Shown: positions 12,306 to 50,045 of the stretch, in pieces | Position numbering within the stretch: the stretch's first letter is position 1 | How the letters are laid out: each line of letters begins with the position of its first letter | Source of the DNA: Candidatus Levyibacteriota bacterium | GTDB taxonomy: Bacteria; Patescibacteriota; Microgenomatia; Levybacterales; UBA12049 | Length of the DNA stretch: 64,000 bases | Reading direction: 5' to 3' | Assembly: GCA_963716145.1 (NCBI GenBank) | Contig: OY970292.1 | Coordinates: 76,104 to 140,103 of the forward strand | Position numbers and translations under genes: made by a program | The notes under the pieces: model-generated | What the model saw: the letters and a program-made list of their open reading frames with translations, nothing else | Told to the model about the DNA's origin: nothing | The model's database searches: none

Positions 12306-14620
12306 AGAAAATCTTACCTATCATTTTTCTTGCAATAATTATAGTTATTTTTTTCTCACTCTTACTTTTTAAGAATCGGCTTCCAATTCCAGCAGACACG
12401 ATTGTCGGCTTGTATCATCCATTCAGAGATTTATACGCGAAAGATTATCCAAATGGAATTGCTTTTAAAAATTTTCTAGTTACTGATCCAGTACGTCAGC
12501 AATATCCATGGAAAAATTTGACGATGAATATCGAAAAACGCTTTGAGTTGCCTCTTTGGAATCCGTATAATTTTGCCGGGACACCTCTTCTGGCCAATTT
12601 TCAATCAGCAGCTTTTTATCCCTTAAATCTTATTTTTTTGGTACTACCTTTCTCTATTGGTTGGAGTGGCTTAGTCTTGCTGCAGCCGTTATTGGCAGGA
12701 GTTTTTCTATATTTATATCTAAATAATCTAAAGATCAGTCGTTATTCTAGCATTTTTGGAGCGGTTAGTTTTGCGTTTTGTGGATTCTCGGTTGCATGGC
12801 TTGAGTGGGGAACCGTATCACACACCGCAATATGGTTACCTTTAGTACTTTTGTCGATAGATAAAATTATGCATAACTCAACTGACTCAAAAATTTCAAA
12901 TTTCAAATTTCAAATTTCAAATAAACAAATAAGTGTTAAGAAAAATTTAGTTTGGGCACTATTATTTTTATTTTCTCTTACCTCATCTTTTTTTGCAGGG
13001 CATTTGCAGATATTCTTTTATTTAATTATTGCATCATTTTCTTACTTCTTATTTCGTTGGTTTCAAGAGGGGAGAAATAAAAAAACTTTAATTATATTCT
13101 TAATTCTCATCTCTTTATTCTTAATACTGACAATTATTCAATGGTTGCCTACTCTACAATTTATTTTTCAAAGTGCGCGCGGAGTAGACCAAAATTGGCA
13201 AAAGGAAGGATGGTTCATTCCTTGGCAGAATCTTGCTCAATTTGTAGCGCCTGATTTTTTTGGTAACCCCACAACGCTTAACTATTGGGGAGTTTGGAAT
13301 TACGCTGAATTCATAGGATATATAGGGATAGTGCCATTAATAATGGCGGCTTGTGCATTTTTTCAAAGACGAGAAAAATTGATTATTTTTTTTGGCTCAA
13401 TCTTTTTTCTATCTCTTTTATTTTCCTTGCCCACTTTTTTTGCAATGATTCCTTTCCAGCTCCAAATCCCATTCATATCAACTGCTCAACCTACCCGACT
13501 TTTATTTTTAACAGACTTTTCGCTTGCAGTTCTGGCAGCCCTGGGAATTGATGCGTTGATGAGTTATAACAAAAGGAGGCAAATAATTTATCCACTATTA
13601 TTGGTTGGTCTTATCCTTGTTGGTTTATGGGTTTTTGTTTTTGCAGGCGCAAATTTATTGCACTCTATATCCTTGGAAAATTTAAATACCGCAAAGCGCA
13701 ATCTTTATTTCCCAACGATTATCTTTGTTGTTACAGCAGTCCTACTTTTTTCCTACGTTTCCTTAAAAAATAAAGCATATAGGTCGCTAATTTTAGTTTT
13801 GCTATTAATATTTACAGTTGGCGATCTTCTTCGGTTTACATATAAATTTACTCCCTTTACTCCTCAAAAATATCTTTATCCTAATACAAAAGCTATCGAT
13901 TTTTTGCAAAAACAAAAAGGACAATTCCGTATCATGACAACGGATGACAGAATTTTGCCCCCAAATTTCTCCATAATGTATCAGTTGCAGACACTTGACG
14001 GCTATGACCCTTTATATCTGTTAAGATACGGAGAATTAGTTACGGCGTCAGAGAGGGGAAGACCGGATATAAAACCTCCATTTGGTTTTAATAGAATAGT
14101 TACTCCACATAATTTTGAATCCAACCTGGTGGATTTGATGAATGTCCGTTTTGTTCTGAGTTTGTCTGAGATAAAATCCCCAAAATTGGAAAAGGTTTTT
14201 GAAGAAGGGCAGACAAAAATTTATAAAAATAATTCCGCTTTTCAAAGAGCTTTTTTGGTAAAAAAGATAATAGCTGTTTCCGGTAAACAAAATGCAATTA
14301 ATACACTATTTAATAGTGAAATTGATTTGAAGCAAACTGCGATAGTTGAAAATTGGAATAATAAAAAAACTGACTTTGCTCAAGGATCAGTAAGTATTGT
14401 AGAATACAAAGAGAATAATATTAGTGTTTTGGTTCAAAGTAGACAAGAAGCATTTTTAGTTCTGGTGGATACTTTCTATCCGACCTGGAGTGCACAAGTT
14501 TGTATGTCCGATGACAGTAGTTGTAAAGAGGCAAAAATTTATCTGACCGACTATAATTTCCGCGGGATAGTAATTCCAAAAGGAGTACACAAGGTAATAT
14601 TTAAGAACTCATTATTATGA
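12302..14620 (+). CDS. YfhO-family polytopic membrane protein (GT-C-type glycosyltransferase); carries an in-frame AAATTTC x4 array
   Basis: 772 aa; C-terminal DTFYPTWSA...GIVIPKGVHKVIFK is the characteristic YfhO end; ATGA overlap with flanking genes. Confidence 0.6.
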   Translation: MKKILPIIFLAIIIVIFFSLLLFKNRLPIPADTIVGLYHPFRDLYAKDYPNGIAFKNFLVTDPVRQQYPWKNLTMNIEKRFELPLWNPYNFAGTPLLANFQSAAFYPLNLIFLVLPFSIGWSGLVLLQPLLAGVFLYLYLNNLKISRYSSIFGAVSFAFCGFSVAWLEWGTVSHTAIWLPLVLLSIDKIMHNSTDSKISNFKFQISNKQISVKKNLVWALLFLFSLTSSFFAGHLQIFFYLIIASFSYFLFRWFQEGRNKKTLIIFLILISLFLILTIIQWLPTLQFIFQSARGVDQNWQKEGWFIPWQNLAQFVAPDFFGNPTTLNYWGVWNYAEFIGYIGIVPLIMAACAFFQRREKLIIFFGSIFFLSLLFSLPTFFAMIPFQLQIPFISTAQPTRLLFLTDFSLAVLAALGIDALMSYNKRRQIIYPLLLVGLILVGLWVFVFAGANLLHSISLENLNTAKRNLYFPTIIFVVTAVLLFSYVSLKNKAYRSLILVLLLIFTVGDLLRFTYKFTPFTPQKYLYPNTKAIDFLQKQKGQFRIMTTDDRILPPNFSIMYQLQTLDGYDPLYLLRYGELVTASERGRPDIKPPFGFNRIVTPHNFESNLVDLMNVRFVLSLSEIKSPKLEKVFEEGQTKIYKNNSAFQRAFLVKKIIAVSGKQNAINTLFNSEIDLKQTAIVENWNNKKTDFAQGSVSIVEYKENNISVLVQSRQEAFLVLVDTFYPTWSAQVCMSDDSSCKEAKIYLTDYNFRGIVIPKGVHKVIFKNSLL
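12889..12922. repeat. Perfect tandem heptanucleotide array (AAATTTC)x4, in frame inside the YfhO-family gene (encodes ...KISNFKFQISNK...)
   Basis: aaatttc at 12891-12897, 12898-12904, 12905-12911, 12912-12918, then partial aaat. Confidence 0.9.
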
Positions 14621-15570
14621 ATCTAAGCATTGTTATACCAAATTATAACGGGGAAAAATTGTTACAAAAAAACTTACCTCTCATTATTGAAGCGGTTAAA
14701 GATTATAAAGAAGGTAAAATTGAAATAATAATTCCGGATGACCCCTCAACCGACAATTCCAGAGAATTTATAAAGGAATTTATCGTGAGTATTAAGCAAA
14801 AAAATATAACAGGATTAACAATCAGTAATGACAAAAAAAACAAAGCTGGCTTTAGTAGAAATGTTAACAGGGGGGTTGGTATCTCAACTGGGGATATTCT
14901 AATCTTACTCAATTCAGACGTTTATCCTCATAAAGATTTTCTTGAACCGCTCCTCAAACACTTTGAAGAAGGAGAAGTTTTTGCTGTTGGATGTTTGGAC
15001 GAAAGTATTGAGAATGGTAGTAAAATTCTTCGCGGCCGGGGATTGGGGAGTTTTAAGCGCGGCTTTTTAGTTCATAGAGCAGGAAGTATTGATAAGGAAA
15101 ACACTTTGTGGGCAAGTGGGGGGAGCGGAGCGTTCAGGAAAAGTATCTGGGAGACTTTAGGTGGATTTGATCCATTGTTTGACCCATTTTATTGGGAAGA
15201 TATTGATCTTTCCTATAGAGCATTAAAGTCAGGATACAAAATCAGGTTTGAGCCAAAGAGTATTGTCATCCATGAGCATGAAAAAGGTACAGTAAAAGAA
15301 ATGTTTGAGGATGATTATGTCAAAAATATTTCTTACAGAAATCAATTTATTTTTACTTGGAAAAATATAACAGATTCTGACCTATTCATATTACACGTTG
15401 TCTGGCTGCCCTACCATCTGTTAAGAGCGCTGATTAGCGGAGATTGGCAATTTTTTAACGGGCTCTTTATGGCATTGGTAAATTTTGGTAGAATACACAA
15501 ATCAAGACAATTGGTTAAAAAATTATTTATCAAAACAGATTATCAAGTATTGAAAGACTACAAAGAATGA
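14617..15570 (+). CDS. GT2 family glycosyltransferase
   Basis: LSIVIPNYNGEKLL...IIIPDDPSTDNS; GT-A hallmarks. Confidence 0.7.
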   Translation: MNLSIVIPNYNGEKLLQKNLPLIIEAVKDYKEGKIEIIIPDDPSTDNSREFIKEFIVSIKQKNITGLTISNDKKNKAGFSRNVNRGVGISTGDILILLNSDVYPHKDFLEPLLKHFEEGEVFAVGCLDESIENGSKILRGRGLGSFKRGFLVHRAGSIDKENTLWASGGSGAFRKSIWETLGGFDPLFDPFYWEDIDLSYRALKSGYKIRFEPKSIVIHEHEKGTVKEMFEDDYVKNISYRNQFIFTWKNITDSDLFILHVVWLPYHLLRALISGDWQFFNGLFMALVNFGRIHKSRQLVKKLFIKTDYQVLKDYKE

Positions 15571-16292
15571 AATTATCCATAATTATTCCTGTTTTTAATG
15601 AGGAAAACACAATTGTTCCTGTTCTTGAAAAAGTGGAAAAGCTTATAATTCCCGGGGTTAGTAAGGAAATAATCGTAGTGGACGATGGATCGACCGATGG
15701 TTCTGCATCGGTAATTTCAAATTTCAAATCTCAAATTTCAAATAATAAAAATTATAAGTTTATTTATCATAAAAAAAATCAAGGAAAAGGAGCTGCTGTT
15801 ATATCCGGTATTAGAAACGCGACCGGGGATTATATTACTATTCAGGATGCGGATCTTGAATATGACCCATCCTACTTCACATCACTTATTGTTCCAATCA
15901 AAAAAGGCCAGGGATTAGTGGTTTACGGTACCCGGCTTAAGAGACTGCCTCATCTTTTTAACGAAGAAAGCCACGGCCTTTTCCTTTTGCATTATTTAGG
16001 GAATAGGTCTTTAAGTTTTATAACCAGTGTTTTGTACGGTCAATGGATAACCGATATGGAAACTTGTTACAAAATCTTTCCACGAGAGGCTGTTAAAGGT
16101 ATGAAGTTAAATGCAAAAGGTTTTGAGTTTGAACCTGAAATTACGGCAAAGCTGCTTAAGAAAAAATTCAAGATTGTCGAACTGCCGATATCTACTGTCC
16201 CTCGGGGTTATAACGAAGGTAAAAAACTACACACAGTTAGAGACGGAGCAAAAGCGCTTTGGTCACTGGTTAAATATCGGTTTGTTGATTAA
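15567..16292 (+). CDS. GT2 polyprenol-phosphate glycosyltransferase (DPM synthase-like); carries an in-frame AAATTTC array
   Basis: LSIIIPVFNEE...VVDDGSTDGS...IQDADLEYDP motifs. Confidence 0.7.
   Translation: MKLSIIIPVFNEENTIVPVLEKVEKLIIPGVSKEIIVVDDGSTDGSASVISNFKSQISNNKNYKFIYHKKNQGKGAAVISGIRNATGDYITIQDADLEYDPSYFTSLIVPIKKGQGLVVYGTRLKRLPHLFNEESHGLFLLHYLGNRSLSFITSVLYGQWITDMETCYKIFPREAVKGMKLNAKGFEFEPEITAKLLKKKFKIVELPISTVPRGYNEGKKLHTVRDGAKALWSLVKYRFVD
15713..15744. repeat. Tandem heptanucleotide array (AATTTCA)x4, one variant unit aatctca, in frame in the DPM-synthase-like GT2
   Basis: units at 15713-15719, 15720-15726, 15727-15733 (variant), 15734-15740; encodes ISNFKSQISNN. Confidence 0.9.
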
Positions 16293-16301
16293 AATAAAAG
16301 A

Positions 16302-17798
16302 ATGAGCATGCATATTTTTGAGAAAATTAAGTTAAATCTTCCGCTTCTTCTTTCTTTGTTTTTTATTTTTATAATTTCCTTATGGTTAAGGTTAGCTTTT
16401 CTGGATACAAATTTATTTTTTGGTCCAGAGCAGGGTAGGGATTTTTTAGTAATTAAAGAACTTGTTTTACAGCATAGATTGACACTAATTGGACCAAAAA
16501 CGGATATAGCCGGCATCTTTCACGGTCCGGTATTTTACTACTTTACAGCTATACCATTTGCAATGAGTCAAGGCGACCCTCTTTTTTCGGCAAAGTTTTT
16601 AATTGTAGTTAATTGTATAACAGTATTTTTTATCTATCTTTTGGGTGCACGTCTTCACAACCGTTCCACCGGTCTTGTAGCAGCAATTTTATTTGCTTTC
16701 TCTTTCAACGCAATTGTTTACGCGCGTTGGCTTTCAAATCCTCCATTATCTATTCCGTTGGTCACAATGGCAATGTTTTTCTTAATAGATTTTCTTAAAG
16801 GAAATAAAAAAAGCTTATTGGGCTATTCAATTTGCTTGGGCTTGCTTGGTCAAGTGGAATTCTTAAATATTTTATTTTTTGTAGCTATTACATTATGTGT
16901 TATTTTTGTATTTTTTAAACGTTTTAGAAAAACATCAGCTGTTTTTTTACTCATCAATTTTCTTATTGTTTCACTTTTGTGCGTTGGTTCATATATCTTA
17001 TTTGATATAAGGCATCAGTTCCTTATTACGAATAATATATTAAATCTTCTCAGGGGACAAACAGGGTTTCATATTTCTTTATTGTCTGCATTGCAAAAAA
17101 GTAGTTTAGAGTTTTTTAATTCATTTACGGTAACTGTTTTGCCTTTTAGAGGACCTTGGAGTTTTTTGCTTTTATTTTTTGCTGCGGGACTACTTCTTAT
17201 TCGCGCCAAAAAGCAGAAAGAGTATGTTCTAGTAATATTATGGTTATTTATTCCGGTGTTTTTACTTATCATTCTGCGCCATGATGTTCTAGAGCAATTT
17301 TTTGTCGCACTTATCCCTGCTTTTATTCTTGTCACGGCATTGGCGATTGAATCAGTATTGAAAAAAGCTCCACCGCTTGGAATCATTATCGTCATTCTAG
17401 TGATCAGTATGCAGCTAATTGCTTGGAAAAATACAATTCCGCAAAACAAAAATATTTTTTTTCAGACACCACAACCGGATCTTCGCTACTCCGATGTATT
17501 GAAAACAATAGATCGAATCTACCAAGAATCAGGTCAAAAATCATTTGCTGTTCAGGCATATACCATTCCCTATTGGAATCAACAGGCTTGGGAATATCTA
17601 TTCTGGAGTTATGGTGCGAAAAAATACGCAAGATTACCTATCAGTCAAAAAGACACTAAAAAATTGTTTGTTATCATTCAAGATGATTCAGATTCCAAGT
17701 ATCAACAAGATTGGCTTAAAAACACTGTAAGTAAATGGGGATCAGTGACGCAGACTTTTCGTTACGGCGTCTTGACTACGCGGGAATTGCAATTATAG
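16302..17798 (+). CDS. Polytopic membrane protein, putative GT-C glycosyltransferase (paralog family with 22010.. and 23566..)
   Basis: 498 aa; shared RD...LTLIGP....G.F.GP.FY motif with two downstream paralogs. Confidence 0.4.
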   Translation: MSMHIFEKIKLNLPLLLSLFFIFIISLWLRLAFLDTNLFFGPEQGRDFLVIKELVLQHRLTLIGPKTDIAGIFHGPVFYYFTAIPFAMSQGDPLFSAKFLIVVNCITVFFIYLLGARLHNRSTGLVAAILFAFSFNAIVYARWLSNPPLSIPLVTMAMFFLIDFLKGNKKSLLGYSICLGLLGQVEFLNILFFVAITLCVIFVFFKRFRKTSAVFLLINFLIVSLLCVGSYILFDIRHQFLITNNILNLLRGQTGFHISLLSALQKSSLEFFNSFTVTVLPFRGPWSFLLLFFAAGLLLIRAKKQKEYVLVILWLFIPVFLLIILRHDVLEQFFVALIPAFILVTALAIESVLKKAPPLGIIIVILVISMQLIAWKNTIPQNKNIFFQTPQPDLRYSDVLKTIDRIYQESGQKSFAVQAYTIPYWNQQAWEYLFWSYGAKKYARLPISQKDTKKLFVIIQDDSDSKYQQDWLKNTVSKWGSVTQTFRYGVLTTRELQL

Positions 17799-17816
17799 TG
17801 TTGAAGTTGGATAAAA

Positions 17817-19502
17817 ATGAAAAAGCTTTTTAATACAAAGATTATATTAGCTATTGTAGTTCTAATTGCGGCATTTTTACGCTTTTATCAACTTGGAGTA
17901 AATCCGCCCTCATTAACCTGGGATGAGGTGGCATGGGGATACAATGCCTATTCGATAGGGGTTGACGGACGTGATGAATTCGGAAGATTGCTGCCATATG
18001 ACTATCTTGAATCCTTCGGAGATTTTAAACCTCCAATGTATGCATATTTAAGCGTGATTCCCGTTAAGATTTTTGGTCTTAATGAATTTGCAACCCGCTT
18101 TGCCTCAGCGTTTTTTGGAACCTTAACGGTATTAATTACTTATTTTTTGGTGAAAGCTTTGTTCTCATTAAATCCGAAACAAACTCAAAATTCAAAAAAT
18201 TCATTGGGAATTGGGAATTGGGAATTGGGAATCCCAATAGTAGCAACAATATTCTTGGCAATCTCACCGTGGCACATTATGCTCTCCAGAGCTGCTTTTG
18301 AAGCAAATGTCGCAACCTTCTTTTTAGTTTTCGGAGTTACAAGTTTTCTTTATTGGATAAAGGAAAAAAATACATTTCTCATATTCTCAGTACTGTCGTT
18401 TGCTTTCTCACTTTATACATTTAATTCTGCCCGCGTAGTAGCTCCGCTTTTGGTTAGTATGTTGGTTGCGGGATTTTGGAAAACATTGTGGCAAAGGAAA
18501 AATGCTGTTATCGTAGCAGGGATTATCGGATTTTTGCTTGTTGCACCCCTTGTCCCCTTCTTGCTATCTCCACAGGCAGGATTGAGATATAAAGAGGTAA
18601 ATATTTTTTCTGATCCGCAAATTGTAGAAAAGGCTAATCAGCAAATCACCAATGATAATAACGTCTGGTGGTCAAAGATTATCCATAATCGGCGCGTAGG
18701 ATATGGATTATCTTATTTGCAACATTATTTAGATAACTTTTCCCCTGACTTTCTGTTTATAAAGGGGGACGGAAATCCCAAATTTTCCACGCAAGAAGTC
18801 GGACAAATGTATATTTGGTCATTACCATTTTTTATCTTAGGCGTACTTTTTCTATTTAAAAAGAGAGAAGGATATTGGTGGATAGTTCCTGCTTGGTTAT
18901 TGCTCGGTATTGTTCCCGCGGCAGTAGCGCGTGAGACTCCTCATGCTTTAAGGACTGAGGGGACATTGCCTACATTTCAAATACTTGAGGCTTATGGTTT
19001 TATAGGAACTCTCTTCTTTCTTAAGGAGCATTTCAGAAGGAAGATTCTTACTTTCACCTGCGCAATCTTCGGGATAATATATATGTTGAATTTTGTTTAT
19101 TTTCTTCATGGTTATTATGTTCATTATGCATGGAAATGGTCAGGTGAATGGCAGTATGGTTATAAAGATTCGATCACTTTTGTTAAAGATAATGAACAGC
19201 AATTTGATAAAATTTTCGTAACAGACTCTCTAGGAAGACCGTATGTTTATTACCTATTTTATCTACATATTTCTCCTGAAACTTTCAGAAATAATGTAAA
19301 AGTAGAACGTGATGCATTCGGATTTGTAAAAGTAAAAGAAGTTGGAAAATTTTCTTTTGAGAGTAATATTAGCGGAAGCAAGCTTAAAGGTGAGAAAGTT
19401 TTATATATTAGTGATATGAAAAATATTCCTCAAAAGGCAAAAGTTCTAAAAACGTTTTATCTCAAAAACGGAAGCCCAATATTAATTGCATACAGTATGT
19501 AA
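17817..19502 (+). CDS. PMT/ArnT-like GT-C glycosyltransferase (GT39/GT83-like); carries an in-frame TTGGGAA x4 array
   Basis: 561 aa; N-terminal loop WDEVAWGYNAYS with DE motif, ~12 TM helices, large C-terminal domain. Confidence 0.5.
   Translation: MKKLFNTKIILAIVVLIAAFLRFYQLGVNPPSLTWDEVAWGYNAYSIGVDGRDEFGRLLPYDYLESFGDFKPPMYAYLSVIPVKIFGLNEFATRFASAFFGTLTVLITYFLVKALFSLNPKQTQNSKNSLGIGNWELGIPIVATIFLAISPWHIMLSRAAFEANVATFFLVFGVTSFLYWIKEKNTFLIFSVLSFAFSLYTFNSARVVAPLLVSMLVAGFWKTLWQRKNAVIVAGIIGFLLVAPLVPFLLSPQAGLRYKEVNIFSDPQIVEKANQQITNDNNVWWSKIIHNRRVGYGLSYLQHYLDNFSPDFLFIKGDGNPKFSTQEVGQMYIWSLPFFILGVLFLFKKREGYWWIVPAWLLLGIVPAAVARETPHALRTEGTLPTFQILEAYGFIGTLFFLKEHFRRKILTFTCAIFGIIYMLNFVYFLHGYYVHYAWKWSGEWQYGYKDSITFVKDNEQQFDKIFVTDSLGRPYVYYLFYLHISPETFRNNVKVERDAFGFVKVKEVGKFSFESNISGSKLKGEKVLYISDMKNIPQKAKVLKTFYLKNGSPILIAYSM
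18204..18245. repeat. Perfect tandem heptanucleotide array (TTGGGAA)x4 ending in the palindrome ATTGGGAATCCCAAT, in frame in the PMT-like gene
   Basis: units 18204-18210, 18211-18217, 18218-18224, 18225-18231; encodes LGIGNWELGI. Confidence 0.9.
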
Positions 19503-19503
19503 C

Positions 19504-21141: not shown

Positions 21142-21146
21142 TAATT

Positions 21147-25188: not shown

Positions 25189-25254
25189 TTATCCGTATCA
25201 CAATCAATTCCGTATTTAGTTACAATGCTGAGGATATTTTGCTAGAATAAAGCT

Positions 25255-25800
25255 ATGAGAATCGGAATCGACATATCGCAAACAGCTTATGAGAACACAG
25301 GAGTTGCCAACTATACAAAAAGTTGGGTTGAGGGTTTGTTGAGAGTTGATCAAGAAAATGAGTATATTCTTTTTTTCTCATCTCTGAGAAAAAAAATTCC
25401 CTCATTTGCCAAAGATTTATCAAGGCAGAAAAACTCAAAAGTCAAAATAAAAACATTTAAATATCCCCCGACTCTTCTCGACATGTTCTGGAATAGGCTA
25501 CATATTATGCCAATTGAGGATTTGATAGGACAGGTTGATGTTTTCATCTCGTCCGATTGGACTCAGCCGCCGACAAAACGGGCAAAAAAGGTGACAATAC
25601 TTTATGACCTGATCGTTTATAGATATCCTGAAGAAACAGATATTAAAATTGTTCACACGCAAAGAAGAAGATTGAATTGGGTTAAAAAAGAATGTGATGT
25701 TATTTTTTGTATCTCTGAATCAACAAAACAAGATGCAAGGGACATACTGGCGATTGAAGAGAACCGTTTAAAAGTTGTTTATCCCGGAATTCAGCTATGA
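25255..25800 (+). pseudogene. Truncated GT4 glycosyltransferase, N-terminal Rossmann half only (possible duplication remnant)
   Basis: 181 aa resembling the N-terminal half of neighbouring GT4s (MRIGID...NEYILF) and ending at the mid-protein YPGI linker; the next gene is a complete GT4. Confidence 0.4.
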
Positions 25801-26945
25801 TTATTGGAATTGATGGTAATGAAGCAAACGTTAAAAAACGTGTAGGTATCAGTGAGTACGCGTTTGAGTTGTTGCGACAATTTTCAAAAATTAATTTTCA
25901 AAACTCAAAGTTCACAATTTATTTGAAGGATGATCCAGTCAGCGATATGCCCGCTGAAAGTGAGGGTTGGAAGTACAGAATTATTAAACCAGGCAAATTG
26001 TGGACTCAGTGGAGATTACCACTTGATTTGTATTTAAGAAAGAGCAGGCCTGATGTATTTTTCTCTCCCTCTCATTATGCTCCGCGTTTTTCTCCCGTCC
26101 CGACAGTTATTTCAATTATGGATTTATCCTATCTTTATTTTCCTGAAATGTTTAATAGGGCTGATTTATTACAACTTCGTAATTGGACAGCCTATTCAGT
26201 AAAAAATGCCAAAAAGATCCTGACAATCAGTAAATCGAGCAAAAATGATATAATTAATTCATACAAAGTACCTGCGGAGAGAATAATTGTAACTTATCCG
26301 GGCATAAAACAATCGGCGTCTCTCTCACAGCACATTTATGTTATGAATCAATTAAAAGCAAGATACAAAATTTCAGATAACTATATTTTATTTGTTGGGA
26401 CACTTCAGCCGAGGAAAAATATTGAAAGGTTGATTGAGGCATTTGCCCTGATGCTGAAAAATGCGGATCTAAACGCTGAAAAACGCCAAAATTTGCAATT
26501 GGTTATTGTAGGGAAGAAAGGATGGTTATATGAAAAAATTCTGGCAGCACCCAAAAAATTTGAAATAGAAGATAAGGTAAAATTTTTAGAAAACGTAAAC
26601 GACGACGAGCTTGCAATTTTTTATAAACATGCATTATGCTTTGTTTTGCCAAGCCTATATGAGGGGTTTGGGTTGCCTGTTCTAGAGGCAATGCAGGCAG
26701 GATGCCCGGTTATAACAAGTGATGTTTCAAGCCTCCCTGAAGCAGGAGGAGATGCATGTATTTATATAGATCCCGAAGACGCGGGCGACATTGCGGACAA
26801 AATATGGAAACTCATCACAACTGAGAAACTAAGACACGAATTGATAGAAAAAGGGAAAAAGCAGGTTAAGAAATTTAGCTGGGAAAAAACTGCTAGAGAA
26901 ACCTTATCTGTTTTGGAAGAAATTGCCCAAAATAAAAATATATGA
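25797..26945 (+). CDS. GT4 family glycosyltransferase
   Basis: PSLYEGFGLPVLEAMQAGCPVITSDVSSLPEAGGDA C-terminal motif. Confidence 0.7.
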   Translation: MIIGIDGNEANVKKRVGISEYAFELLRQFSKINFQNSKFTIYLKDDPVSDMPAESEGWKYRIIKPGKLWTQWRLPLDLYLRKSRPDVFFSPSHYAPRFSPVPTVISIMDLSYLYFPEMFNRADLLQLRNWTAYSVKNAKKILTISKSSKNDIINSYKVPAERIIVTYPGIKQSASLSQHIYVMNQLKARYKISDNYILFVGTLQPRKNIERLIEAFALMLKNADLNAEKRQNLQLVIVGKKGWLYEKILAAPKKFEIEDKVKFLENVNDDELAIFYKHALCFVLPSLYEGFGLPVLEAMQAGCPVITSDVSSLPEAGGDACIYIDPEDAGDIADKIWKLITTEKLRHELIEKGKKQVKKFSWEKTARETLSVLEEIAQNKNI

Positions 26946-27535: not shown

Positions 27536-27553
27536 ATTGATCCCGCAATTAAT

Positions 27554-28432: not shown

Positions 28433-28433
28433 T

Positions 28434-31493: not shown

Positions 31494-32938
31494 AAAAAAC
31501 CGGAAAATTATACTCCATACTTTTAGCGGTGATTCTCTTGGTAGGATTTGCTGTAAGGCTATACCGGTTCAATAATCCAATTGCAGATTGGCACAGTTGG
31601 CGTCAGGCAGACACATCAGCAGTTTCCAGGAATTTTGTTAAAAATAGTTTTGACGTACTTCACCCAAGATTTGATGATCTTTCAAATGTTCCATCAGGGC
31701 TTGATAATCCTCAGGGATACCGGTTTGTAGAATTTCCAATTTATAACATTAAGCAAGCATTTCTTTTCAAAACACTTGGGCTATTTACGCTTGAAGAATG
31801 GGGTAGATTGATAAGTATTTTTGCATACGTTTGTAGCTCTCTTTTTTTATATCTTTTGGTATCCCGTCATAGTAATAAGACTATTGGCTTGTTAAGCGCG
31901 TTTTTTTACACTTTTATCCCCTACAATATTTATTATGGCAGAACAATTTTGCCCGATCCATTGATGGTTACTGCGTCACTTGGGGGAATTTATTTTTTTG
32001 ATTTATGGTTAGAAAATTTCAAATCCAGGAGCAAAAATTATTTATTTTTTATTTTAGCAACCATTTTTACAGCCTGCGCATTATTGGTCAAGCCTTACGC
32101 TTTATTTTTTACGCTGCCGATGATTGTATTGGTTTGGCAAAAGTGGGGAATAGGATTTTTAAAAAAATGGCAGCTGTGGATTTTTGCCATTCTTTCTGTA
32201 CTTCCTCTTATTTGGTGGAGAAATTGGATTACCCAATACCCGGCCGGAATTCCCGCTAACGAATGGCTTCTCAATGGAAACGGGATACGTTTCAGACCGG
32301 CTTTTTTCCGCTGGATTTTTTATGAAAGGATTACAAAGTTAATAAGCGGATACCTGGGAGTAATTATTTTGGCAGTTGGTATTTGGAAAATAAAAAAACA
32401 AAAAGAATGGATGTTTTTTGTTTCATTTTTGTTAAGTTCGTTATTGTACGTAATTGTTTTTGCAACAGGGAATGTGCAGCACGATTATTATCAGATACTT
32501 ATTATGCCAAGCCTGTCGATATTTTTCGCAATAGGAAGTTACTATTTGTACATACTAAATTTAAAAAAGCAACCGGTTGGGAAAATAGTTTTGGCGATAA
32601 GTCTTATAAGTCTTTTCTGGTTTGGGTGGAGTCAGGTAAAGGATTATTTTAATATTAATAATCAGTCAATTATTACGGCAGGTAAGGCAGTTGATAAACT
32701 TACTCCAAAAGATGCAAAGGTTATCGCAAATTATAATGGCGATACCTCATTTCTTTATCAAACTAACAGACAGGGTTGGGCAAGTCTGCAAAATCCACTT
32801 CCTGAAATGGTCCAAAAAGGAGCGGACTATCTGGTTCTTCTTAATCCGACAGAAAAAGATATGGATTTTGGCAAGCCCTACCAAATCGTTACGCGCACTC
32901 GAGAATATATTATTTTTGATTTACACAAAAGCCCATGA
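31490..32938 (+). CDS. ArnT/PMT-like GT-C glycosyltransferase
   Basis: 482 aa polytopic; N-terminal loop DWHSWRQADTSAVSRNF typical of phospholipid-carrier-dependent glycosyltransferases. Confidence 0.45.
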   Translation: MKKTGKLYSILLAVILLVGFAVRLYRFNNPIADWHSWRQADTSAVSRNFVKNSFDVLHPRFDDLSNVPSGLDNPQGYRFVEFPIYNIKQAFLFKTLGLFTLEEWGRLISIFAYVCSSLFLYLLVSRHSNKTIGLLSAFFYTFIPYNIYYGRTILPDPLMVTASLGGIYFFDLWLENFKSRSKNYLFFILATIFTACALLVKPYALFFTLPMIVLVWQKWGIGFLKKWQLWIFAILSVLPLIWWRNWITQYPAGIPANEWLLNGNGIRFRPAFFRWIFYERITKLISGYLGVIILAVGIWKIKKQKEWMFFVSFLLSSLLYVIVFATGNVQHDYYQILIMPSLSIFFAIGSYYLYILNLKKQPVGKIVLAISLISLFWFGWSQVKDYFNINNQSIITAGKAVDKLTPKDAKVIANYNGDTSFLYQTNRQGWASLQNPLPEMVQKGADYLVLLNPTEKDMDFGKPYQIVTRTREYIIFDLHKSP

Positions 32939-33567
32939 AGATTTTGATGGTTAGCTCCTTTCTCCCGTATCCGCTTTTTTCGGGAGGGCAGGTCAGGCTT
33001 TTTAATCTTATTAAGGAATTGTCAGCGCGTCACGAGATAACATTAATTTGTGAGAAACGTGAGAATCAAACCGCTGAGGATGAAAATGAGCTCGGGAAAA
33101 TCTGTAAAAAAATTATAACAGTTAAAAGGAAGAAGCAATGGTCAATGAGAAATATATTGAAAACTGCATTCTCTTCAAATTCATTTTTGGTTACAGGCCA
33201 CACCAACATAGAAATGCAAAATAAAATAAAAGAAGAACTAGAAAGAGAAAAGTACGATTTAATTCATGTGGAAACTTATTATATAATGCAAAATTTACCC
33301 TCTGCATTATCAATTCCTGTAGTTTTGGCGGAACACAACATAGAGTATCAGGTTTACAAGAAGTATGTTGACCAAGGATCGCTATTTTTAAAACCTTTGC
33401 TTTCTTTGGATGTTGCAAAAATACAGAAAGAGGAGGAAAGTTTTTGGAAAAAAGCTGATAAATTAATTGCAGTTTCAGGGGATGATAAAAACGCGATGGA
33501 GAAAAAGGGGCTTATGCCCGTTATTGTTGCGAATGGGGTGGACACTGAGAAATTTAGTTTTAAACTA

Positions 33568-33597
33568 GAATTAAGAATTAAGAAGCAAGAATTAAGG
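33568..33597. repeat. Tandem heptanucleotide array (GAATTAA)x4, one variant gaagcaa, in frame in the frameshifted GT4
   Basis: units 33568-33574, 33575-33581, 33582-33588 (variant), 33589-33595, then gg; encodes LELRIKKQELR. Confidence 0.9.
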
Positions 33598-33680
33598 CGA
33601 ATTTTGTTTATTGGTGATTTTAAGTGGTTGCAAAATAGAGACGCTGTGAAGTTTATAGTTGAGGAGATATGGCCCAAAAT

Positions 33681-33715
33681 AATTTCAAATTTCAAATTTC
33701 AAATTTCAAATTCTC
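33681..33715. repeat. Tandem heptanucleotide array (AATTTCA)x4 plus variant aattctc, in frame in the same GT4
   Basis: units 33681-33687, 33688-33694, 33695-33701, 33702-33708, 33709-33715 (variant); encodes ISNFKFQISNSQ. Confidence 0.9.
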
Positions 33716-34140
33716 AATTAAAATTGTGGATTGTTGGGAGAGAGATTCCGGACTCTATAAAAAACTTAACAAATGATCAAGATATCATTTTTGATGAAGA
33801 AGGATCAGCTAGGCCAACGGAAGAATTATTCCAGGAGGCTGATATTCTTTTTGGCTCCGATCAGAATAGGCGGAGGGACTAGTTATAAAATACTTGAGAG
33901 CATGAGCAGTGGTACGCCCGTCGTAACTACAGAACTTAGCGCAAGTGTAATTGATGCAAAGGATAGCATAAATATTATGGTAGGCAAAAATGCTCAAGAG
34001 CTATCTGAAAAAACATTAAAGCTTCTTTCTGATAAAAGACTTTATCAAGCAGTGGCAAAAAATGGGCGGAGCTTGATTGAAGAAAAATACACATGGAGAA
34101 AAATCGCCAATGAGCTGGATAAAGTTTATAAAAGTCTGAT

Positions 34141-35058
34141 ATGAACAAAGTTGATTTATCAATTGTTATCCTAAATTACAACACCAAGCAGTTGACACTT
34201 GATGCTATTTCATCAATTGAAAAGAACTATCCGGATGAAGTTAAATCTGAGAAATACGAAGTGATAGTTGCGGATAATGCTTCACCGGATGACTCGCATA
34301 AAGCGTTCGAAGAGTATAAAAAGAAAAGTAAAATTAAATCTTTTCACGTCGTTGATAACGGTGGGAATATTGGGTTCTCCAAAGGCAATAATAACGGCTT
34401 AAAATATTCTCAGGGACGGTATGTTTTATTTCTGAATCCCGACACGGTAGTTTATCCCAAAACATTGGACAAAATGGTTGAGTTTATGGATACACATCTT
34501 GGCGCCGGAGCTGCAACCTGCAAAGTCGAGATCCCTGCGGGTGGAATTGATGATGCATCTCATCGGGGATTCCCAACTCCCTGGAACGCCTTAACTCACT
34601 TTTCAGGTTTTGAAAAGTTATTTCCAAAAAGTCGAATATTCGCAGGATATACTCAAGGATTTAAAGATATGAATAGCGTGCATGAGGTTGATGCCATATC
34701 GGGAGCTTTCTTATTTGTTCGGCGGGAAGTTGGGGAGCAGATCGGCTGGTGGGATGAAGAATACTTTTTTTATGGAGAAGATATCCAGTTTTGTTACAAC
34801 ATTAAAAAAGCAGGATATAAAATCTATTATGTGCCAGATGTCAGCATTCTTCACTACGGAGGCGTGTCAAGCGGTATTAAAAAGCAATCCCACCACATAA
34901 CCACAGCAGATAAAGAGCACCGAAAAATTATGCAGAGTCATCGTTTTGCCGCGATGCGGATTTTTTACAAAAAAAATTATCAGAAAAGATACCCCAAGTT
35001 TGTTAGTTGGATTGTAAACAAAGGAATTGACAGCCTACATAAAAAGCATTCGTCTTAG
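34141..35058 (+). CDS. GT2 family glycosyltransferase
   Basis: LSIVILNYNTKQLT...VADNASPDDS. Confidence 0.7.
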   Translation: MNKVDLSIVILNYNTKQLTLDAISSIEKNYPDEVKSEKYEVIVADNASPDDSHKAFEEYKKKSKIKSFHVVDNGGNIGFSKGNNNGLKYSQGRYVLFLNPDTVVYPKTLDKMVEFMDTHLGAGAATCKVEIPAGGIDDASHRGFPTPWNALTHFSGFEKLFPKSRIFAGYTQGFKDMNSVHEVDAISGAFLFVRREVGEQIGWWDEEYFFYGEDIQFCYNIKKAGYKIYYVPDVSILHYGGVSSGIKKQSHHITTADKEHRKIMQSHRFAAMRIFYKKNYQKRYPKFVSWIVNKGIDSLHKKHSS

Positions 35059-35079
35059 CCTCTGTGTTATACTTAAAGC

Positions 35080-36195
35080 ATGAAAATTGGCATTGATGCA
35101 AGGCTTTGGAGCGAAACTGGAGTTGGGAGATATATCCGCAATTTGGTAAAGGAACTTCAAGTATTGGACAAGAAGAATGAGTATGTTTTGTTTGTCAGAA
35201 AGGCAGATTACGATAAGGTTAAATTTCAAATTTCAAATGATAAATTCCATATCAGAATTGCGGATATCCGTTGGCACACAATTGACGAGCAGCTGAAGCT
35301 TCCTCATATACTAGATAAAGAAAATGTGGACTTGGTTCATTTTCCTTATTTTTCTGTTCCTGTGGGTTACAAAAAGCCTTTCGTTATGACAATTCATGAT
35401 TTGATTCTTAATCATTTCCCGACAGGTAAAGCCTCCAAGCTCCCTCTGTATTTATATCAATTAAAGCGTCTTGGCTATGATTATGTAGTAAAAAAAGCAG
35501 TGAAGAGAGCGCAAAAAATTATCGTTCCCCTCAATGCTGTCAGAGATGATTTGGTAGCAACACTTGGAGTCAAAGAAGAAAAAGTTGCTGTAACGTATGA
35601 AGGCTTTGATGAAAAAATAATCAGTAAAGATAAGTCATCGATTGATGATACTAAATATTTTTTGTATGTTGGGAACGCATATCCACACAAGAATATCGAA
35701 AGACTAATAAAAGCCTTTTCCCTTTTTAGAAAAGAACAAAATGCAGAAGTACATTTGCTGTTGGTTGGCAAGGACGACTATTTTTATAAAAAACTTTCAG
35801 AAAAAATAAGGAAAGAAAATTATTCTGGAATTTTGATAAGGAACAATGTAAAAGATTATGAGCTTGCAAATTATTATAATAACGCTATAGCGCTCATTTC
35901 CCCCTCTCTTATGGAAGGATTTGGACTTCCGGTGCTTGAAGCAATGGCATCATCATGTGCCGTACTTGCGTCAGATATTCCCTCACTCAGAGAAGTGTGC
36001 GAAGGTGCGGCGTTATACTTTAATCCGCATTCTATTACAGAGATAAAAGATAAAATGAATCTTATTTTTAATACTGACAAAGAAACTCTAGAAAAATTAA
36101 TAAATAAAGGATTAGATCGTTCTCAGCAATTTTCCTGGAAAAAAATGGCAGAACAAACACTGAAAGTTTATGAAAGTTGCTTTAGTTTACGATAG
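35080..36195 (+). CDS. GT4 family glycosyltransferase; carries short AAATTTC x2 array
   Basis: MKIGIDARLW N-term and SPSLMEGFGLPVLEAMASSCAVLASDIPSLREV C-term. Confidence 0.7.
   Translation: MKIGIDARLWSETGVGRYIRNLVKELQVLDKKNEYVLFVRKADYDKVKFQISNDKFHIRIADIRWHTIDEQLKLPHILDKENVDLVHFPYFSVPVGYKKPFVMTIHDLILNHFPTGKASKLPLYLYQLKRLGYDYVVKKAVKRAQKIIVPLNAVRDDLVATLGVKEEKVAVTYEGFDEKIISKDKSSIDDTKYFLYVGNAYPHKNIERLIKAFSLFRKEQNAEVHLLLVGKDDYFYKKLSEKIRKENYSGILIRNNVKDYELANYYNNAIALISPSLMEGFGLPVLEAMASSCAVLASDIPSLREVCEGAALYFNPHSITEIKDKMNLIFNTDKETLEKLINKGLDRSQQFSWKKMAEQTLKVYESCFSLR
35221..35238. repeat. Short tandem array (AAATTTC)x2 plus partial, in frame in GT4 35080..36195
   Basis: units 35221-35227, 35228-35234, then aaatgat; encodes KFQISND. 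Confidence 0.8.
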
Positions 36196-43744: not shown

Positions 43745-43821
43745 TTGACAAGGTGAATTTTTGGGTCCAGAATATATAAATAGGTAAAAGTAGGAAAAAG
43801 TAGGTCGTCTGCAAAGCAGAC
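43745..43821 (+). promoter_or_regulatory. mraZ upstream control region: TTGACA box, three TAGG direct repeats at 10-bp phasing (MraZ-box-like) and a 6-bp-stem hairpin
   Basis: ttgaca 43745-43750; aaaTAGG/taaaagTAGG/aaaaagTAGG at 43775-43804; gtctgcaaagcagac inverted repeat 43807-43821; ATG of mraZ at 43865. Confidence 0.45.
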
Positions 43822-43864
43822 TTCATAGTTTAGAAATTAGAAATAAAATTAGAGAGGCAGGAAT

Positions 43865-44302: not shown

Positions 44303-44323
44303 ATAAAGAATTAAGAATTAAGG
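44301..44323. repeat. GAATTAA-type array (gaataaa gaattaa gaattaa gg) starting inside and just after the mraZ stop codon, intergenic mraZ-rsmH
   Basis: mraZ TGA at 44300-44302; units 44301-44307, 44308-44314, 44315-44321. Confidence 0.85.
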
Positions 44324-50043: not shown

Positions 50044-50045
50044 GG
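50016..50045. repeat. GAATTAA-type array (gaataaa gaatcaa gaatcaa gaattaa gg) forming the last codons and TAA stop of the murE-like gene
   Basis: units 50016-50022, 50023-50029, 50030-50036, 50037-50043; stop TAA 50041-50043 is inside the last unit. Confidence 0.9.

What the first reader, a model, noticed from the sequence alone, without database searches (positions are those of the whole stretch)
12889..35238. AAATTTC heptamer arrays in four different envelope-glycosylation genes
The same AAATTTC/AATTTCA unit is repeated in tandem inside the YfhO-like gene (12891-12918, 4 copies) and the DPM-synthase-like GT2 (15713-15740, 4 copies, one variant aatctca). It also occurs in the frameshifted GT4 (33681-33715, 5 units, one variant) and GT4 35080.. 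(35221-35234, 2 copies). All are in frame and all encode an (I)SNFKFQISN-like peptide. Identical units in non-homologous genes argue against independent local slippage from unrelated seeds. Each array is currently in the ON (in-frame) state.
Basis: seen in the sequence. Interest (0 to 1): 0.75.

Follow-up and report, generated by a model that had tools for sequence, protein, structure and literature searches.

The report
In-frame heptamer microsatellites in CPR genes
Four short runs of the 7-base unit AAATTTC really do sit in frame inside four cell-envelope glycosylation genes. They belong to a much wider class of 7-base coding microsatellites that keep being rewritten in place over evolution, and nothing examined shows them acting as on/off gene switches.

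Summary
AAATTTC arrays lie at 12891, 15713, 33681 and 35221, in frame, in a YfhO-like gene, a DPM-synthase-like GT2 and two GT4 genes.

The on/off-switch reading is not supported.
- The shared peptide is arithmetic: 3x7 = 21 nt, so every frame gives cyclic ISNFKFQ.
- The unit is one of few AT-rich heptamers without stops in all three frames.
- Arrays also sit in essential genes: rsmH and murF here; MurD, LeuRS, Pth, Fmt, GatA, MetRS and RlmN elsewhere.
- No frameshifted allele appeared in 48 embedded arrays, 84 YfhO orthologs or 48 GT2 orthologs.
- The GT4 frameshift is a T5 homopolymer, T4 in an independent assembly.

What is unusual:
- In 775 kb of related Microgenomates DNA, perfect arrays of at least 3 copies are almost only period 7 (34, against at most 2 for periods 5, 6 and 8-12). 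All are coding and none exceeds 5.3 copies.
- At the YfhO and GT2 sites the array holds the same codon position in orthologs of 57-67% identity. The unit differs in every copy (AAATTTC, AAATATC, AAAACTC, AATTTCC), which is concerted evolution.
- Arrays appear without length change.

Best reading: heptamer-specific replication misalignment or conversion, filtered by selection. This is a new coding variant of known prokaryotic heptamer repeats. Interest is moderate.

The parts
12891..12922 (+). (AAATTTC) x4.6, perfect. It encodes KISNFKFQISN in the YfhO-like gene.
   Evidence: The same codon position holds heptamer arrays in orthologs. It lies in a low-confidence coil, residues 196-211, between predicted helices 179-194 and 214-231.
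12302..14620 (+). YfhO-like membrane protein gene (772 aa), host of array 1.
   Evidence: Pfam PF09586, E = 5e-15. 2348 homologs at E <= 1e-20; those that carry a name are labelled mostly Patescibacteria or Levybacteria.
15713..15743 (+). (AATTTCA) x4.4 with one AAATCTC unit. It encodes VISNFKSQISNN in the GT2 gene.
   Evidence: Orthologs carry arrays of AAATTTC, AAATCTC, AATTTCC, GAAATTC or AAAATTA at the same place. The segment aligns to the stretch after DDxSxD of DPM synthase 5mlz, with +4 aa.
15567..16292 (+). GT2 gene, DPM-synthase/ArnC-like (241 aa), host of array 2.
   Evidence: PF00535, E = 1e-33. PDB 5mlz, E = 6e-18.
33681..33717 (+). (AATTTCA) x5.1, last unit variant. It encodes IISNFKFQISNSQ in the GT4 gene.
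   Evidence: The L007 ortholog has LLRAVEGEV here with no array; the window is +3 aa. The Logan contig ends inside it.
32935..34144 (+). GT4 gene, split in the window into 32935-33882 and 33773-34144.
   Evidence: The N-part hits PF13439 and the C-part hits PF13692/PF00534. The gene is intact in the Logan assembly.
33848..33852 (+). T5 homopolymer that causes the GT4 frameshift. It is unrelated to the array and is probably an assembly error.
   Evidence: The Logan contig has T4. The only other indel in 5.5 kb is also a homopolymer (C4 against C3, near 38506).
35221..35238 (+). (AAATTTC) x2.6. It encodes VKFQISN in the second GT4 gene.
   Evidence: The L007 ortholog has IEEKIAKKTN here with no array; the window is -2 aa.
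35080..36195 (+). GT4 gene (371 aa), host of array 4.
   Evidence: PF00534 and PF13439.
25881..25915 (+). Degenerate period-7 stretch (TTTTCAA|AAATTAA|TTTTCAA|AACTCAA|AGTTCAC) in GT4 gene 25797-26945. The L121 ortholog has a perfect (AAATTTC) x4.4 at the same position.
   Evidence: 75% aa identity and no gap at this site.
18203..18232 (+). (ATTGGGA) x4.3, a rotation of GGGAATT, in frame in PMT-like gene 17817-19502.
   Evidence: Identical in the Logan contig.
33567..33596 (+). (AGAATTA) x4.3, imperfect, in the same GT4 gene. Member of the AAGAATT family.
44556..44586 (+). (AAGAATT) x4.4, imperfect, in frame in rsmH/mraW (44372-45271).
50016..50044 (+). (GAATCAA / AAGAATC) x4.1 at the C-terminus of a Mur ligase gene (48766-50043). 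The array supplies the TAA stop codon.
44301..44322 (+). (GAATTAA) x3.1, overlapping the stop codon of mraZ and extending into the spacer before rsmH.
36718..36749 (+). (GAGCGCAA) x4 octamer array, in frame in GT gene 36170-37258. It lies in the loop where the L007 ortholog carries an AAATTTC array.

Best explanation
The four arrays are coding heptanucleotide microsatellites. They belong to a period-7-specific class of short tandem repeats (about 3-5 copies, at most 37 nt). The class is common in this Patescibacteria/Microgenomates lineage and occurs in many other phyla.

Shown:
- They sit in structurally tolerant segments: an inter-helix loop of YfhO, the stretch after the DDxSxD motif of the GT2, and variable linkers of the GT4s.
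- They are always in frame.
- At least two of them (YfhO and GT2) are old. The same codon position holds a heptamer array in orthologs of 57-67% amino-acid identity.
- The unit has changed in all copies at once between lineages. This is concerted evolution.
- Arrays can replace non-repetitive sequence of the same length.

Inferred mechanism:
- Transient out-of-register (7-nt) primer-template misalignment or short-patch conversion during replication or repair repeatedly copies a unit onto its neighbours. This creates and re-homogenises arrays.
- Selection then removes every outcome that changes the frame, introduces a stop or disturbs the fold.

This filter explains three things.
- Why the unit is an A-run/T-run heptamer bridged by C: TAA and TGA are stops.
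- Why only one orientation is seen in ORFs.
- Why the encoded peptide is a heptad (ISNFKFQ) with helix-like spacing of hydrophobic residues.

Each array is a latent frameshift hotspot. I see no evidence that switching is used. The clustering in glycosylation genes mostly reflects what this part of the window encodes.
For: - Period specificity: in 775 kb (window plus 78 ortholog loci), perfect arrays of at least 3 copies number 34 for period 7. Periods 5 and 6 give 2 each, periods 8 and 9 give 1 each, periods 10-12 give 0, and shuffles give 0 for periods 6-12. All 34 lie inside ORFs of at least 238 codons on the coding strand. Copy numbers are 3.0-5.3 and never more.
- Orthologous persistence with unit turnover, YfhO loop: AAATTTC (window, L122, L121, L152, L162), AAATATC (L123, L135, L126), AAAACTC (L160, L125, L131, L180), AAAATTC (L139), AATTTTC (L175, L129).
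- Orthologous persistence with unit turnover, GT2 site: AAATTTC, AAATCTC, AATTTCC, GAAATTC, AAAATTA.
- The array is 29/30 identical between the window and L121 or L122. The adjacent loop DNA is 12-15/27 and 18-23/30 identical.
- Length-neutral origin: L148 and L150 have (ATTTGTT) x5.1 where L143 (87% nt identity) and L198 have non-repeat sequence with no gap. The window has a degenerate stretch where L121 has a perfect array, with no gap. The Pth array peptide aligns gap-free to solved Pth 7y52.
- Always in frame: 48 embedded arrays and 0 true frameshifts. The 6 candidate rows (5 loci) are all gene junctions. All 84 YfhO orthologs give a single intact HSP. The 25 GT2 ortholog hits I inspected are single near-full-length HSPs.
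- Hosts include essential genes.
- Unit constraint: 46 of 146 necklaces with at most 1 G/C are stop-free.
- No special abundance of AAATTTC against matched controls: 30 hits against 29, 24, 64 and 52.
- Heptamer excess in prokaryotes, and a polymerase-slippage explanation for it, are on record (PMC4692102, citing Mrazek 2007).
Against: - The misalignment/conversion mechanism is inferred from patterns, not observed.
- It does not by itself explain why period 7 is so sharply preferred.
- It does not explain why arrays stop at about 5 copies, with a bimodal 3.0-3.6 / 4.3-5.3 distribution.
- It does not explain why one genome reuses the same unit at several unrelated loci (4x AAATTTC and 4x AAGAATT here).
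- Long persistence of perfect, frameshift-prone tracts in coding DNA is what selection for mutability would also produce.
- No read-level data were available, so low-frequency length variants cannot be excluded.
Confidence: 0.6

Rival explanations
1. True contingency loci. Slipped-strand changes of +/-1 heptamer reversibly switch YfhO-like, GT2 and GT4 envelope-glycosylation genes off and on. This would vary the cell surface, for example against phage or during host attachment. Second-order selection for switchability would keep the tracts perfect.
For: - The unit length is not a multiple of 3, and the tracts sit in ORFs of surface-glycan genes.
- Three of the four lie in the first quarter of the ORF.
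- Tracts stay perfect at the same site across deep divergence while their flanks decay, as is seen for conserved phase-variable tracts.
- Concerted evolution shows that slippage-type events do occur.
- In-ORF heptanucleotide tracts with frameshifted alleles are described in Haemophilus influenzae (PMC2651432).
Against: - 0 OFF alleles among 48 embedded arrays and 84 YfhO orthologs; the 25 GT2 ortholog hits inspected (of 48) are also intact.
- Copy number is 2.6-5.3, against 8-14 in the in-ORF H. influenzae tracts and 13-38 in the hmw promoter tracts (PMC2651432).
- Identical arrays occur in essential genes, where OFF is lethal.
- Two assemblies of the population agree at every array they both span but differ at homopolymers.
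- Array length is the same in orthologs rather than differing by 3-unit steps.
- There is no clear excess in the glycosylation block: 6 arrays in about 30 kb against 3 in the remaining 34 kb of the window.
Confidence: 0.15
2. Trans-spread of a genome-specific unit. Arrays at unrelated loci are seeded or overwritten from each other by ectopic short-patch gene conversion, or by an unknown templated 'heptamer-writing' activity. A genome therefore carries families of identical units.
For: - The window has AAATTTC at 4 loci and AAGAATT/AAGAATC at 4 loci.
- L121 has AAATTTC at 2 loci, one of them a site where the window is degenerate.
- L126 has AAATATC twice.
- Arrays appear in place without length change.
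- Total length is similar, about 30-33 nt, for 7-mer and 8-mer arrays.
- Genome-specific heptamer families with no known spreading mechanism are described (TAACTGA, PMC4679880; GGGAATC and GGGGAYT, PMC4692102).
Against: - Outside the window, within-locus unit sharing is about what unit frequencies predict: by my own tally of the list, 2 same-unit pairs of 28 against about 1.4 expected.
- In 119 loci chosen for AAATTTC, only 9 of 120 additional arrays are AAATTTC, and unit diversity per genome is high.
- Units at orthologous sites differ between genomes by single steps, as expected from local turnover.
- No candidate enzyme or template was identified.
Confidence: 0.2
3. A conserved functional peptide motif (an amphipathic heptad helix ISNFKFQ) selected at the protein level. 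The DNA repeat would be incidental.
For: - The heptad I..F..F spacing would suit an amphipathic helix (my reading of the sequence).
- The segment takes the place of a same-length native segment in Pth and of a slightly shorter one (+4 aa) in the GT2.
Against: - Orthologs keep the tandem DNA structure while the peptide changes (ISNIKYQ, NSKLKTQ, ISNFQFP, EIRNSKF).
- Codons are identical repeat to repeat.
- Many orthologs lack the segment altogether.
- The YfhO segment is modelled as low-confidence coil.
Confidence: 0.03
4. An assembly or sequencing artefact.
For: The window does contain probable homopolymer errors.
Against: - The arrays are present in an independent Logan assembly.
- They occur at orthologous sites in dozens of metagenomes from different projects.
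- They occur in isolate and complete genomes.
Confidence: 0.01

Closest known systems
Over-represented heptanucleotide simple sequence repeats of prokaryotes (Mrazek, Guo & Shah 2007, as summarised in PMC4692102)
   Same: Head-to-tail 7-nt units. The excess is specific to period 7 relative to other long units. Polymerase slippage is the proposed origin.
   Different: That work is a genome-statistics observation, with emphasis on intergenic repeats. Four features are not, to my knowledge, described there: arrays that are all coding and in frame, the cap at about 5 copies, conserved positions with unit turnover, and length-neutral origin. I could not read the original paper.
Genome-specific heptamer families: cyanobacterial STRR, TAACTGA repeats of Beggiatoaceae, Cyanobacteria and Bacteroidetes (PMC4679880), GGGAATC in Xanthomonas and GGGGAYT in Nostoc (PMC4692102)
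   Same: One heptamer is reused at many unrelated loci of a genome. Arrays have 2-6 copies. The phylogenetic distribution is wide and patchy. No spreading mechanism is known. Orientation in ORFs is dictated by stop codons. The window's GGGAATT array resembles the Xanthomonas unit.
   Different: Those families are mainly intergenic, often just upstream of start codons, and are discussed as regulatory or G-quadruplex elements. When they fall in ORFs they lie at protein termini. Here the arrays are internal to conserved enzymes and persist at orthologous codons.
SSR-mediated phase variation (contingency loci), including in-ORF heptanucleotide tracts of Haemophilus influenzae such as (AATTTTG)14 in hmw1A and (AACAACC)8-13 in a TonB-dependent receptor gene (PMC2651432; PMC3315296)
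   Same: A tandem unit that is not a multiple of 3, inside ORFs of surface-related genes. In principle +/-1 unit shifts the frame.
   Different: Known tracts are long (8-38 units), differ in length between strains, and are regularly found in the OFF frame. Here tracts have 2.6-5.3 units, constant length and no OFF alleles, and they also sit in essential genes.
Rickettsia palindromic elements, which are selfish repeats inserted in frame into protein-coding genes (Ogata et al. 2000; from my own knowledge, not checked here)
   Same: Repetitive DNA tolerated in frame inside conserved, even essential, proteins, at structurally permissive places.
   Different: RPEs are 100-150-bp palindromic mobile insertions that add residues. 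The arrays here are about 30-nt tandem heptamers that largely replace existing residues. Small GC-rich palindromic inserts that split some arrays in relatives may be closer to RPEs.

Membership tests
SSR phase-variable contingency locus | Tandem repeat whose unit is not a multiple of 3, inside an ORF (or in a promoter) | tested here: met
   7-nt unit, inside four ORFs.
SSR phase-variable contingency locus | Repeat number varies between closely related genomes or within a population | tested here: inconclusive
   Two assemblies of one population are identical at every array they both span. Orthologs keep the same array length. No read-level data and no near-identical second strain were available.
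SSR phase-variable contingency locus | Alleles in the OFF (out-of-frame) state are found among genomes | tested here: not met
   0 OFF among 48 embedded arrays; the 6 candidate rows are gene junctions. All 84 YfhO orthologs are intact, and the 25 GT2 ortholog hits inspected, of 48, are intact.
SSR phase-variable contingency locus | Tract long enough for high slippage rates (described heptamer tracts have 8-38 units) | tested here: not met
   2.6-5.1 units here, and at most 5.3 in 775 kb of relatives. Comparison values come from PMC2651432.
SSR phase-variable contingency locus | Restricted to dispensable surface, restriction-modification or variable genes | tested here: not met
   Arrays of the same class lie in rsmH and murF in the window. 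AAATTTC arrays lie in MurD, LeuRS, Pth, Fmt, GatA, RlmN and MetRS elsewhere.
Prokaryotic heptanucleotide SSR class (STRR-like heptamer families) | Head-to-tail tandem copies of a 7-nt unit | tested here: met
Prokaryotic heptanucleotide SSR class (STRR-like heptamer families) | Excess specific to period 7 over neighbouring periods and over chance | tested here: met
   Window: 15 against 5.5 expected at 2 or more copies, and 3 against 0 at 3 or more. Lineage: 34 for period 7 against at most 2 for periods 5, 6 and 8-12.
Prokaryotic heptanucleotide SSR class (STRR-like heptamer families) | The same unit recurs at many unrelated loci of one genome | tested here: inconclusive
   4x AAATTTC and 4x AAGAATT in 64 kb. 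The rest of the 1.14-Mb genome could not be read. Sharing outside the window is not above expectation.
Prokaryotic heptanucleotide SSR class (STRR-like heptamer families) | Predominantly intergenic location | tested here: not met
   34 of 34 arrays in the lineage sample are inside long ORFs. In other phyla roughly half are genic.
Conserved peptide motif or heptad-repeat domain | Peptide conserved in orthologs with diverged, non-repetitive codons | tested here: not met
   The DNA repeat is conserved while the peptide changes with the unit.
Programmed -1 ribosomal frameshift site | X_XXY_YYZ slippery heptamer (A_AAU_UUC fits) plus a downstream stimulator and a functional alternative-frame product | not tested
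   The slippery pattern is present by inspection in every third unit. No stimulatory structure or alternative-frame ORF was looked for or seen. This is speculation only.

The most novel reading that the evidence does not exclude
A dedicated, period-7-specific, length-capped (about 30-37 nt) 'repeat-writing' process operates in Patescibacteria and many other phyla. It would be some form of templated short-patch conversion rather than stepwise slippage. It overwrites tolerant coding segments in place without changing their length, and it re-writes them with new units over evolutionary time. The result is conserved hypermutable cassettes inside envelope and housekeeping genes. In dispensable surface genes these cassettes may serve as low-rate frameshift switches.
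Probability: 0.2. Interest if true: 0.8.

Novelty: new variant of a known kind. Interest (0 to 1): 0.5.

Why it matters
- The excess of heptamer repeats in bacteria has been noted since 2007 and has no accepted mechanism.
- This lineage offers an unusually clean system for studying it. Arrays are almost exclusively period 7, all are coding, and all are capped at about 5 copies. They sit at orthologous codons where unit switches and birth without indels can be traced.
- That makes the mechanism question directly testable with read-level and comparative data: polymerase misalignment, ectopic conversion, or selection for mutability.
- It warns annotators that a non-triplet SSR in a surface gene is not by itself evidence of phase variation.
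- It shows that short-k assemblies break at these arrays.
- It shows that the apparent GT4 pseudogene is a homopolymer discrepancy.

Tried and rejected
- Rfam and tRNA scans of the window found nothing.
- Frameshift at the array as the cause of the split GT4: rejected. The shift is at a T5 run and is absent from another assembly.
- OFF-state search: 6 'different frame left and right' rows (5 loci) all proved to be gene junctions.
- 90%-identity protein clusters of the host genes contained no length variants.
- Special status of AAATTTC: rejected. It has 30 viral-contig hits, against 29, 24, 64 and 52 for matched controls.
- Hairpin formation as a general driver: AAATTTC folds weakly (-3.5 kcal/mol, z = -1.5) and the sibling unit AAATATC does not fold at all.
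- Mobile-element insertion: no conserved flanks or target duplications around 124 arrays, and arrays replace sequence rather than add it.
- Genome-wide unit homogenisation: suggestive in the window only.
- Literature: no paper on SSRs or phase variation in CPR, and none on AAATTTC arrays in bacteria. Mrazek 2007 is not held.
- One malformed literature query and one script error gave nothing.

Full report
1. OBSERVATION

- The 14-mer AAATTTCAAATTTC with at most 1 mismatch occurs 10 times, only at 12891-12918, 15712-15739, 33680-33707 and 35221-35234. All hits are on the + strand. Shuffles give 0.54 on average.
- TRF gives 4.6, 4.4, 5.1 and 2.6 copies.
- The host genes are a YfhO-family membrane protein, a GT2 homologous to DPM synthase and ArnC, and two GT4/GT1 genes.
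- All four arrays are read in the gene's frame.
- Source: the window is part of a 1,142,061-bp contig. Those homologs of its YfhO-like protein that carry a name are labelled mostly Patescibacteria or Levybacteria.

2. TWO CORRECTIONS

First, the shared peptide is not evidence of anything.
- Three 7-nt units make 21 nt, so each frame of (AAATTTC)n reads the same cyclic heptad K-F-Q-I-S-N-F.
- The complementary strand contains TGA every 21 nt. Only this orientation can exist inside an ORF, and in 119 loci from other genomes no long ORF crosses an array on the opposite strand.

Second, the 'frameshifted GT4' is not shifted at the array.
- The frame continues through the array. It breaks about 135 nt later, in a T5 run at 33848-33852.
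- A Logan (short-read) contig of the same population has T4 there and an intact gene.
- The only other indel in 5.5 kb is also a homopolymer, C4 against C3. The pseudogene is most likely an assembly error.

3. THE ARRAYS ARE REAL

A 20,816-bp Logan contig from run ERR11593400 is 99.985% identical to the window.
- It begins inside the 12891 array and ends inside the 33681 array. This is expected when two 32-nt identical repeats meet a k = 31 graph.
- The next contig starts in the 33681 array.
- The arrays at 15713, 18203, 35221 and 36718 are identical in both assemblies.

4. NOT SPECIFIC TO GLYCOSYLATION GENES OR TO THIS GENOME

- Period-7 repeats are enriched in the window as a whole: 15 against 5.5 expected at 2 or more copies, and 3 against 0 at 3 or more.
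- A second family, AAGAATT/AAGAATC, lies in the GT4 (33567), overlapping the stop codon of mraZ (44301), inside rsmH (44556), and at the end of a Mur ligase gene, where it supplies the stop codon (50016).
- A GGGAATT array lies in a PMT-like gene (18203).
- An octamer array lies in another GT gene (36718).
The phyla include Patescibacteria, Acidobacteriota, Nitrospirota, Planctomycetota, Verrucomicrobiota, Bacteroidota and others.
- About half of those arrays are in frame inside long ORFs. The hosts include MurD, four LeuRS genes, Pth, Fmt, GatA, RlmN and MetRS.
- Those same loci carry 120 further heptamer arrays of many unit types.
- In viral contigs, (AAATTTC)3 is no more common than composition-matched heptamers: 30 hits against 29, 24, 64 and 52.

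5. WHY THIS UNIT

- Of 146 heptamer necklaces with at most one G/C, only 46 are free of stops in all three frames on the strand read.
- For a unit made of an A-run and a T-run, the T-to-A junction must be bridged by C, because TAA and TGA are stops.
- The units actually seen in the lineage are of this type: AAATTTC, AAATATC, AAAATTC, AAAAATC, AATTTTC, AAAACTC, AAATCTC and AATTTCC.

6. THE UNUSUAL PART: ORTHOLOG COMPARISON

YfhO site.
- I collected 119 protein homologs and 83 orthologous DNA loci.
- The array lies in a hypervariable loop between two conserved transmembrane segments. The AlphaFold model shows it as low-confidence coil, residues 196-211.
- At the same codon position, orthologs of 57-66% amino-acid identity carry tandem heptamers:
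  - AAATTTC: window 4.6 copies; L122 4.4; L121 with one substitution; L152; L162.
  - AAATATC: L123 4.9; L135; L126.
  - AAAACTC: L160 4.3; L125; L131; L180.
  - AAAATTC: L139.
  - AATTTTC: L175 4.7; L129.
- The array is 29/30 identical between the window and L121 or L122. The neighbouring loop DNA is 44-77% identical.
- Some orthologs have no array. One lacks exactly seven residues.

GT2 site.
- The stretch after DDGSTDxT holds AAATTTC, AAATCTC x5.3, AATTTCC x4.9, GAAATTC x4.9 or AAAATTA in different lineages.
- Array-less orthologs have 24-31 residues there, against 29-33 with an array.

A unit that differs by one base in every copy between lineages is the signature of concerted evolution. 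The repeat structure is maintained by ongoing DNA-level turnover, not by recent origin and not by selection on the peptide.

7. ARRAYS ARISE WITHOUT INDELS

- L148 and L150 have (ATTTGTT) x5.1 where L143 (87% nt identity) and L198 have non-repetitive sequence of the same length.
- Window gene 25797-26945 has a degenerate period-7 stretch where its 75%-identical ortholog in L121 has a perfect (AAATTTC) x4.4, with no gap.
- The array peptide in a Pth gene aligns gap-free with solved Pth 7y52.
- The GT2 array aligns to the stretch after DDxSxD in DPM synthase, with +4 residues.
- At 33681 and 35221 a syntenic relative (L007, 47-51% identity) has no array, and the length differs by +3 and -2 residues.
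- In the next gene L007 has an AAATTTC array exactly where the window has the octamer array.

8. LINEAGE-WIDE STATISTICS

In 775 kb (window plus 78 non-redundant ortholog loci), perfect arrays of at least 3 copies number as follows.

| Period | 5 | 6 | 7 | 8 | 9 | 10-12 |
|---|---|---|---|---|---|---|
| Arrays | 2 | 2 | 34 | 1 | 1 | 0 |

- Shuffled sequence gives 0 for periods 6-12.
- All 34 period-7 arrays are inside ORFs of at least 238 codons on the coding strand.
- Copy numbers fall at 3.0-3.6 (8 arrays) and 4.3-5.3 (26 arrays), and none is longer.
- AAATTTC arrays from other phyla show the same ceiling, with a few exceptions of 6-8 copies.

9. PHASE VARIATION?

- Among all perfect heptamer arrays of at least 3 copies with at least 100 open codons on both sides, 48 are in one continuous frame.
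- Six rows (five loci) showed different best frames left and right. All are gene junctions.
- All 84 YfhO orthologs give a single intact match. The 25 GT2 ortholog hits I inspected, of 48, are single near-full-length matches.
- Known in-ORF heptamer tracts that phase-vary have 8-14 units and are found frameshifted in some strains; the hmw promoter tracts have 13-38 units (PMC2651432).
- SSR indel variability rises steeply with tract length (PMC3315296).

So classical ON/OFF switching is not supported, although only read-level data can exclude rare variants.

10. INTERPRETATION

Most likely (confidence about 0.6):
- A heptamer-specific replication misalignment or short-patch conversion process creates and re-homogenises arrays.
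- Selection for frame, absence of stops and fold then filters the outcomes.

Alternatives not excluded:
- Genuine contingency behaviour in the dispensable glycosylation genes (about 0.15).
- A trans-acting spread of genome-specific units (about 0.2; not exclusive of the main reading).

Still unexplained:
- The sharp period-7 preference.
- The ceiling at about 5 copies and the bimodal copy-number distribution.
- Unit reuse within a genome.

11. COMPARISON WITH KNOWN SYSTEMS

- The phenomenon belongs with the heptanucleotide SSR excess of prokaryotes and with genome-specific heptamer families: STRR, TAACTGA, GGGAATC and GGGGAYT (PMC4692102, PMC4679880).
- It differs in being internal to conserved coding sequences, positionally conserved with unit turnover, and length-neutral.
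- I found no description of this in Patescibacteria.

Noticed in passing
window 33848-33852 and about 38506: The window differs from the short-read Logan assembly of the same population only by +1 base in two homopolymers: T5 against T4, and C4 against C3. The first creates the apparent GT4 pseudogene. The second lies where the window's ORFs change frame, near the start of ORF 38363-39031. These are probably homopolymer errors of the source assembly.
   Followed up: partly
window 36718-36749; L007 about 300-325: An octamer array (GAGCGCAA) x4 lies in frame in GT gene 36170-37258. It occupies the same surface linker where the syntenic relative L007 has an AAATTTC array. The loop is the same but the repeat differs, and the total length is again about 32 nt.
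   Followed up: partly
window 33567, 44301, 44556, 50016: A second heptamer family, AAGAATT/AAGAATC, contains TAA in tandem, so each in-frame copy run is interrupted by a variant unit. At 50016 the array provides the stop codon of a Mur ligase gene.
   Followed up: partly
window 18203-18232: (ATTGGGA) x4.3 is a rotation of GGGAATT. It is one base from the GGGAATC repeat described in Xanthomonas intergenic regions (PMC4692102). Here it lies in frame in a PMT-like gene.
   Followed up: no
L131 about 2600-2700 and its GT2 gene; L150 GT2 gene; L152 about 5600-5640; L180; L198: Small GC-rich, partly palindromic inserts (for example TCCGTCAGCTGACGGA, and CCCTCGGCTTCGCTCGGGGCGAGC duplicated) sit in frame inside heptamer arrays of relatives and split them. 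Several YfhO orthologs carry loop peptides such as SLRGGTTKQS...LRND that look like translated palindromic elements. This may be a distinct in-frame mini-element that targets the same permissive loops.
   Followed up: partly
L137 4870, L144 5706, L148 and L150 5759, L185 4117, L186 3462: A second recurrent array site in YfhO orthologs, at codon about 246-267. The units are T-rich (ATTTGTT, ATTTACT, TATTTAT). The window has no array there.
   Followed up: no
L128 4104-4172 against L138 5565-5603: Two genomes about 91% identical in DNA differ by a 30-nt in-frame indel exactly in the YfhO loop. L128 carries a 14-nt-periodic repeat there.
   Followed up: partly
L021, L101, L104, L108: Four LeuRS genes from different phyla each carry an in-frame AAATTTC array, at different positions in the protein. 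Two Nitrospirota-type MurD genes (L049, L118) share an array at the same site.
   Followed up: partly
L024, L075 (Kuenenia), L099, L114: Rare AAATTTC arrays of 6-8 copies exceed the usual ceiling of about 5 copies. The Kuenenia arrays are flanked by further arrays of other heptamers (GAGATTC, CTCGAAT).
   Followed up: no
window 8000-38500 and 43800-53500: Long co-directional envelope-glycosylation cluster, followed by a dcw-type cell-wall cluster. The glycosylation cluster holds many GT2, GT4, PMT_2, YfhO, Wzy_C-type and NTP-transferase genes. The dcw cluster runs mraZ, rsmH, PBP, Mur ligases, murA-like. Start and stop codons overlap at many junctions in the glycosylation cluster.
   Followed up: partly
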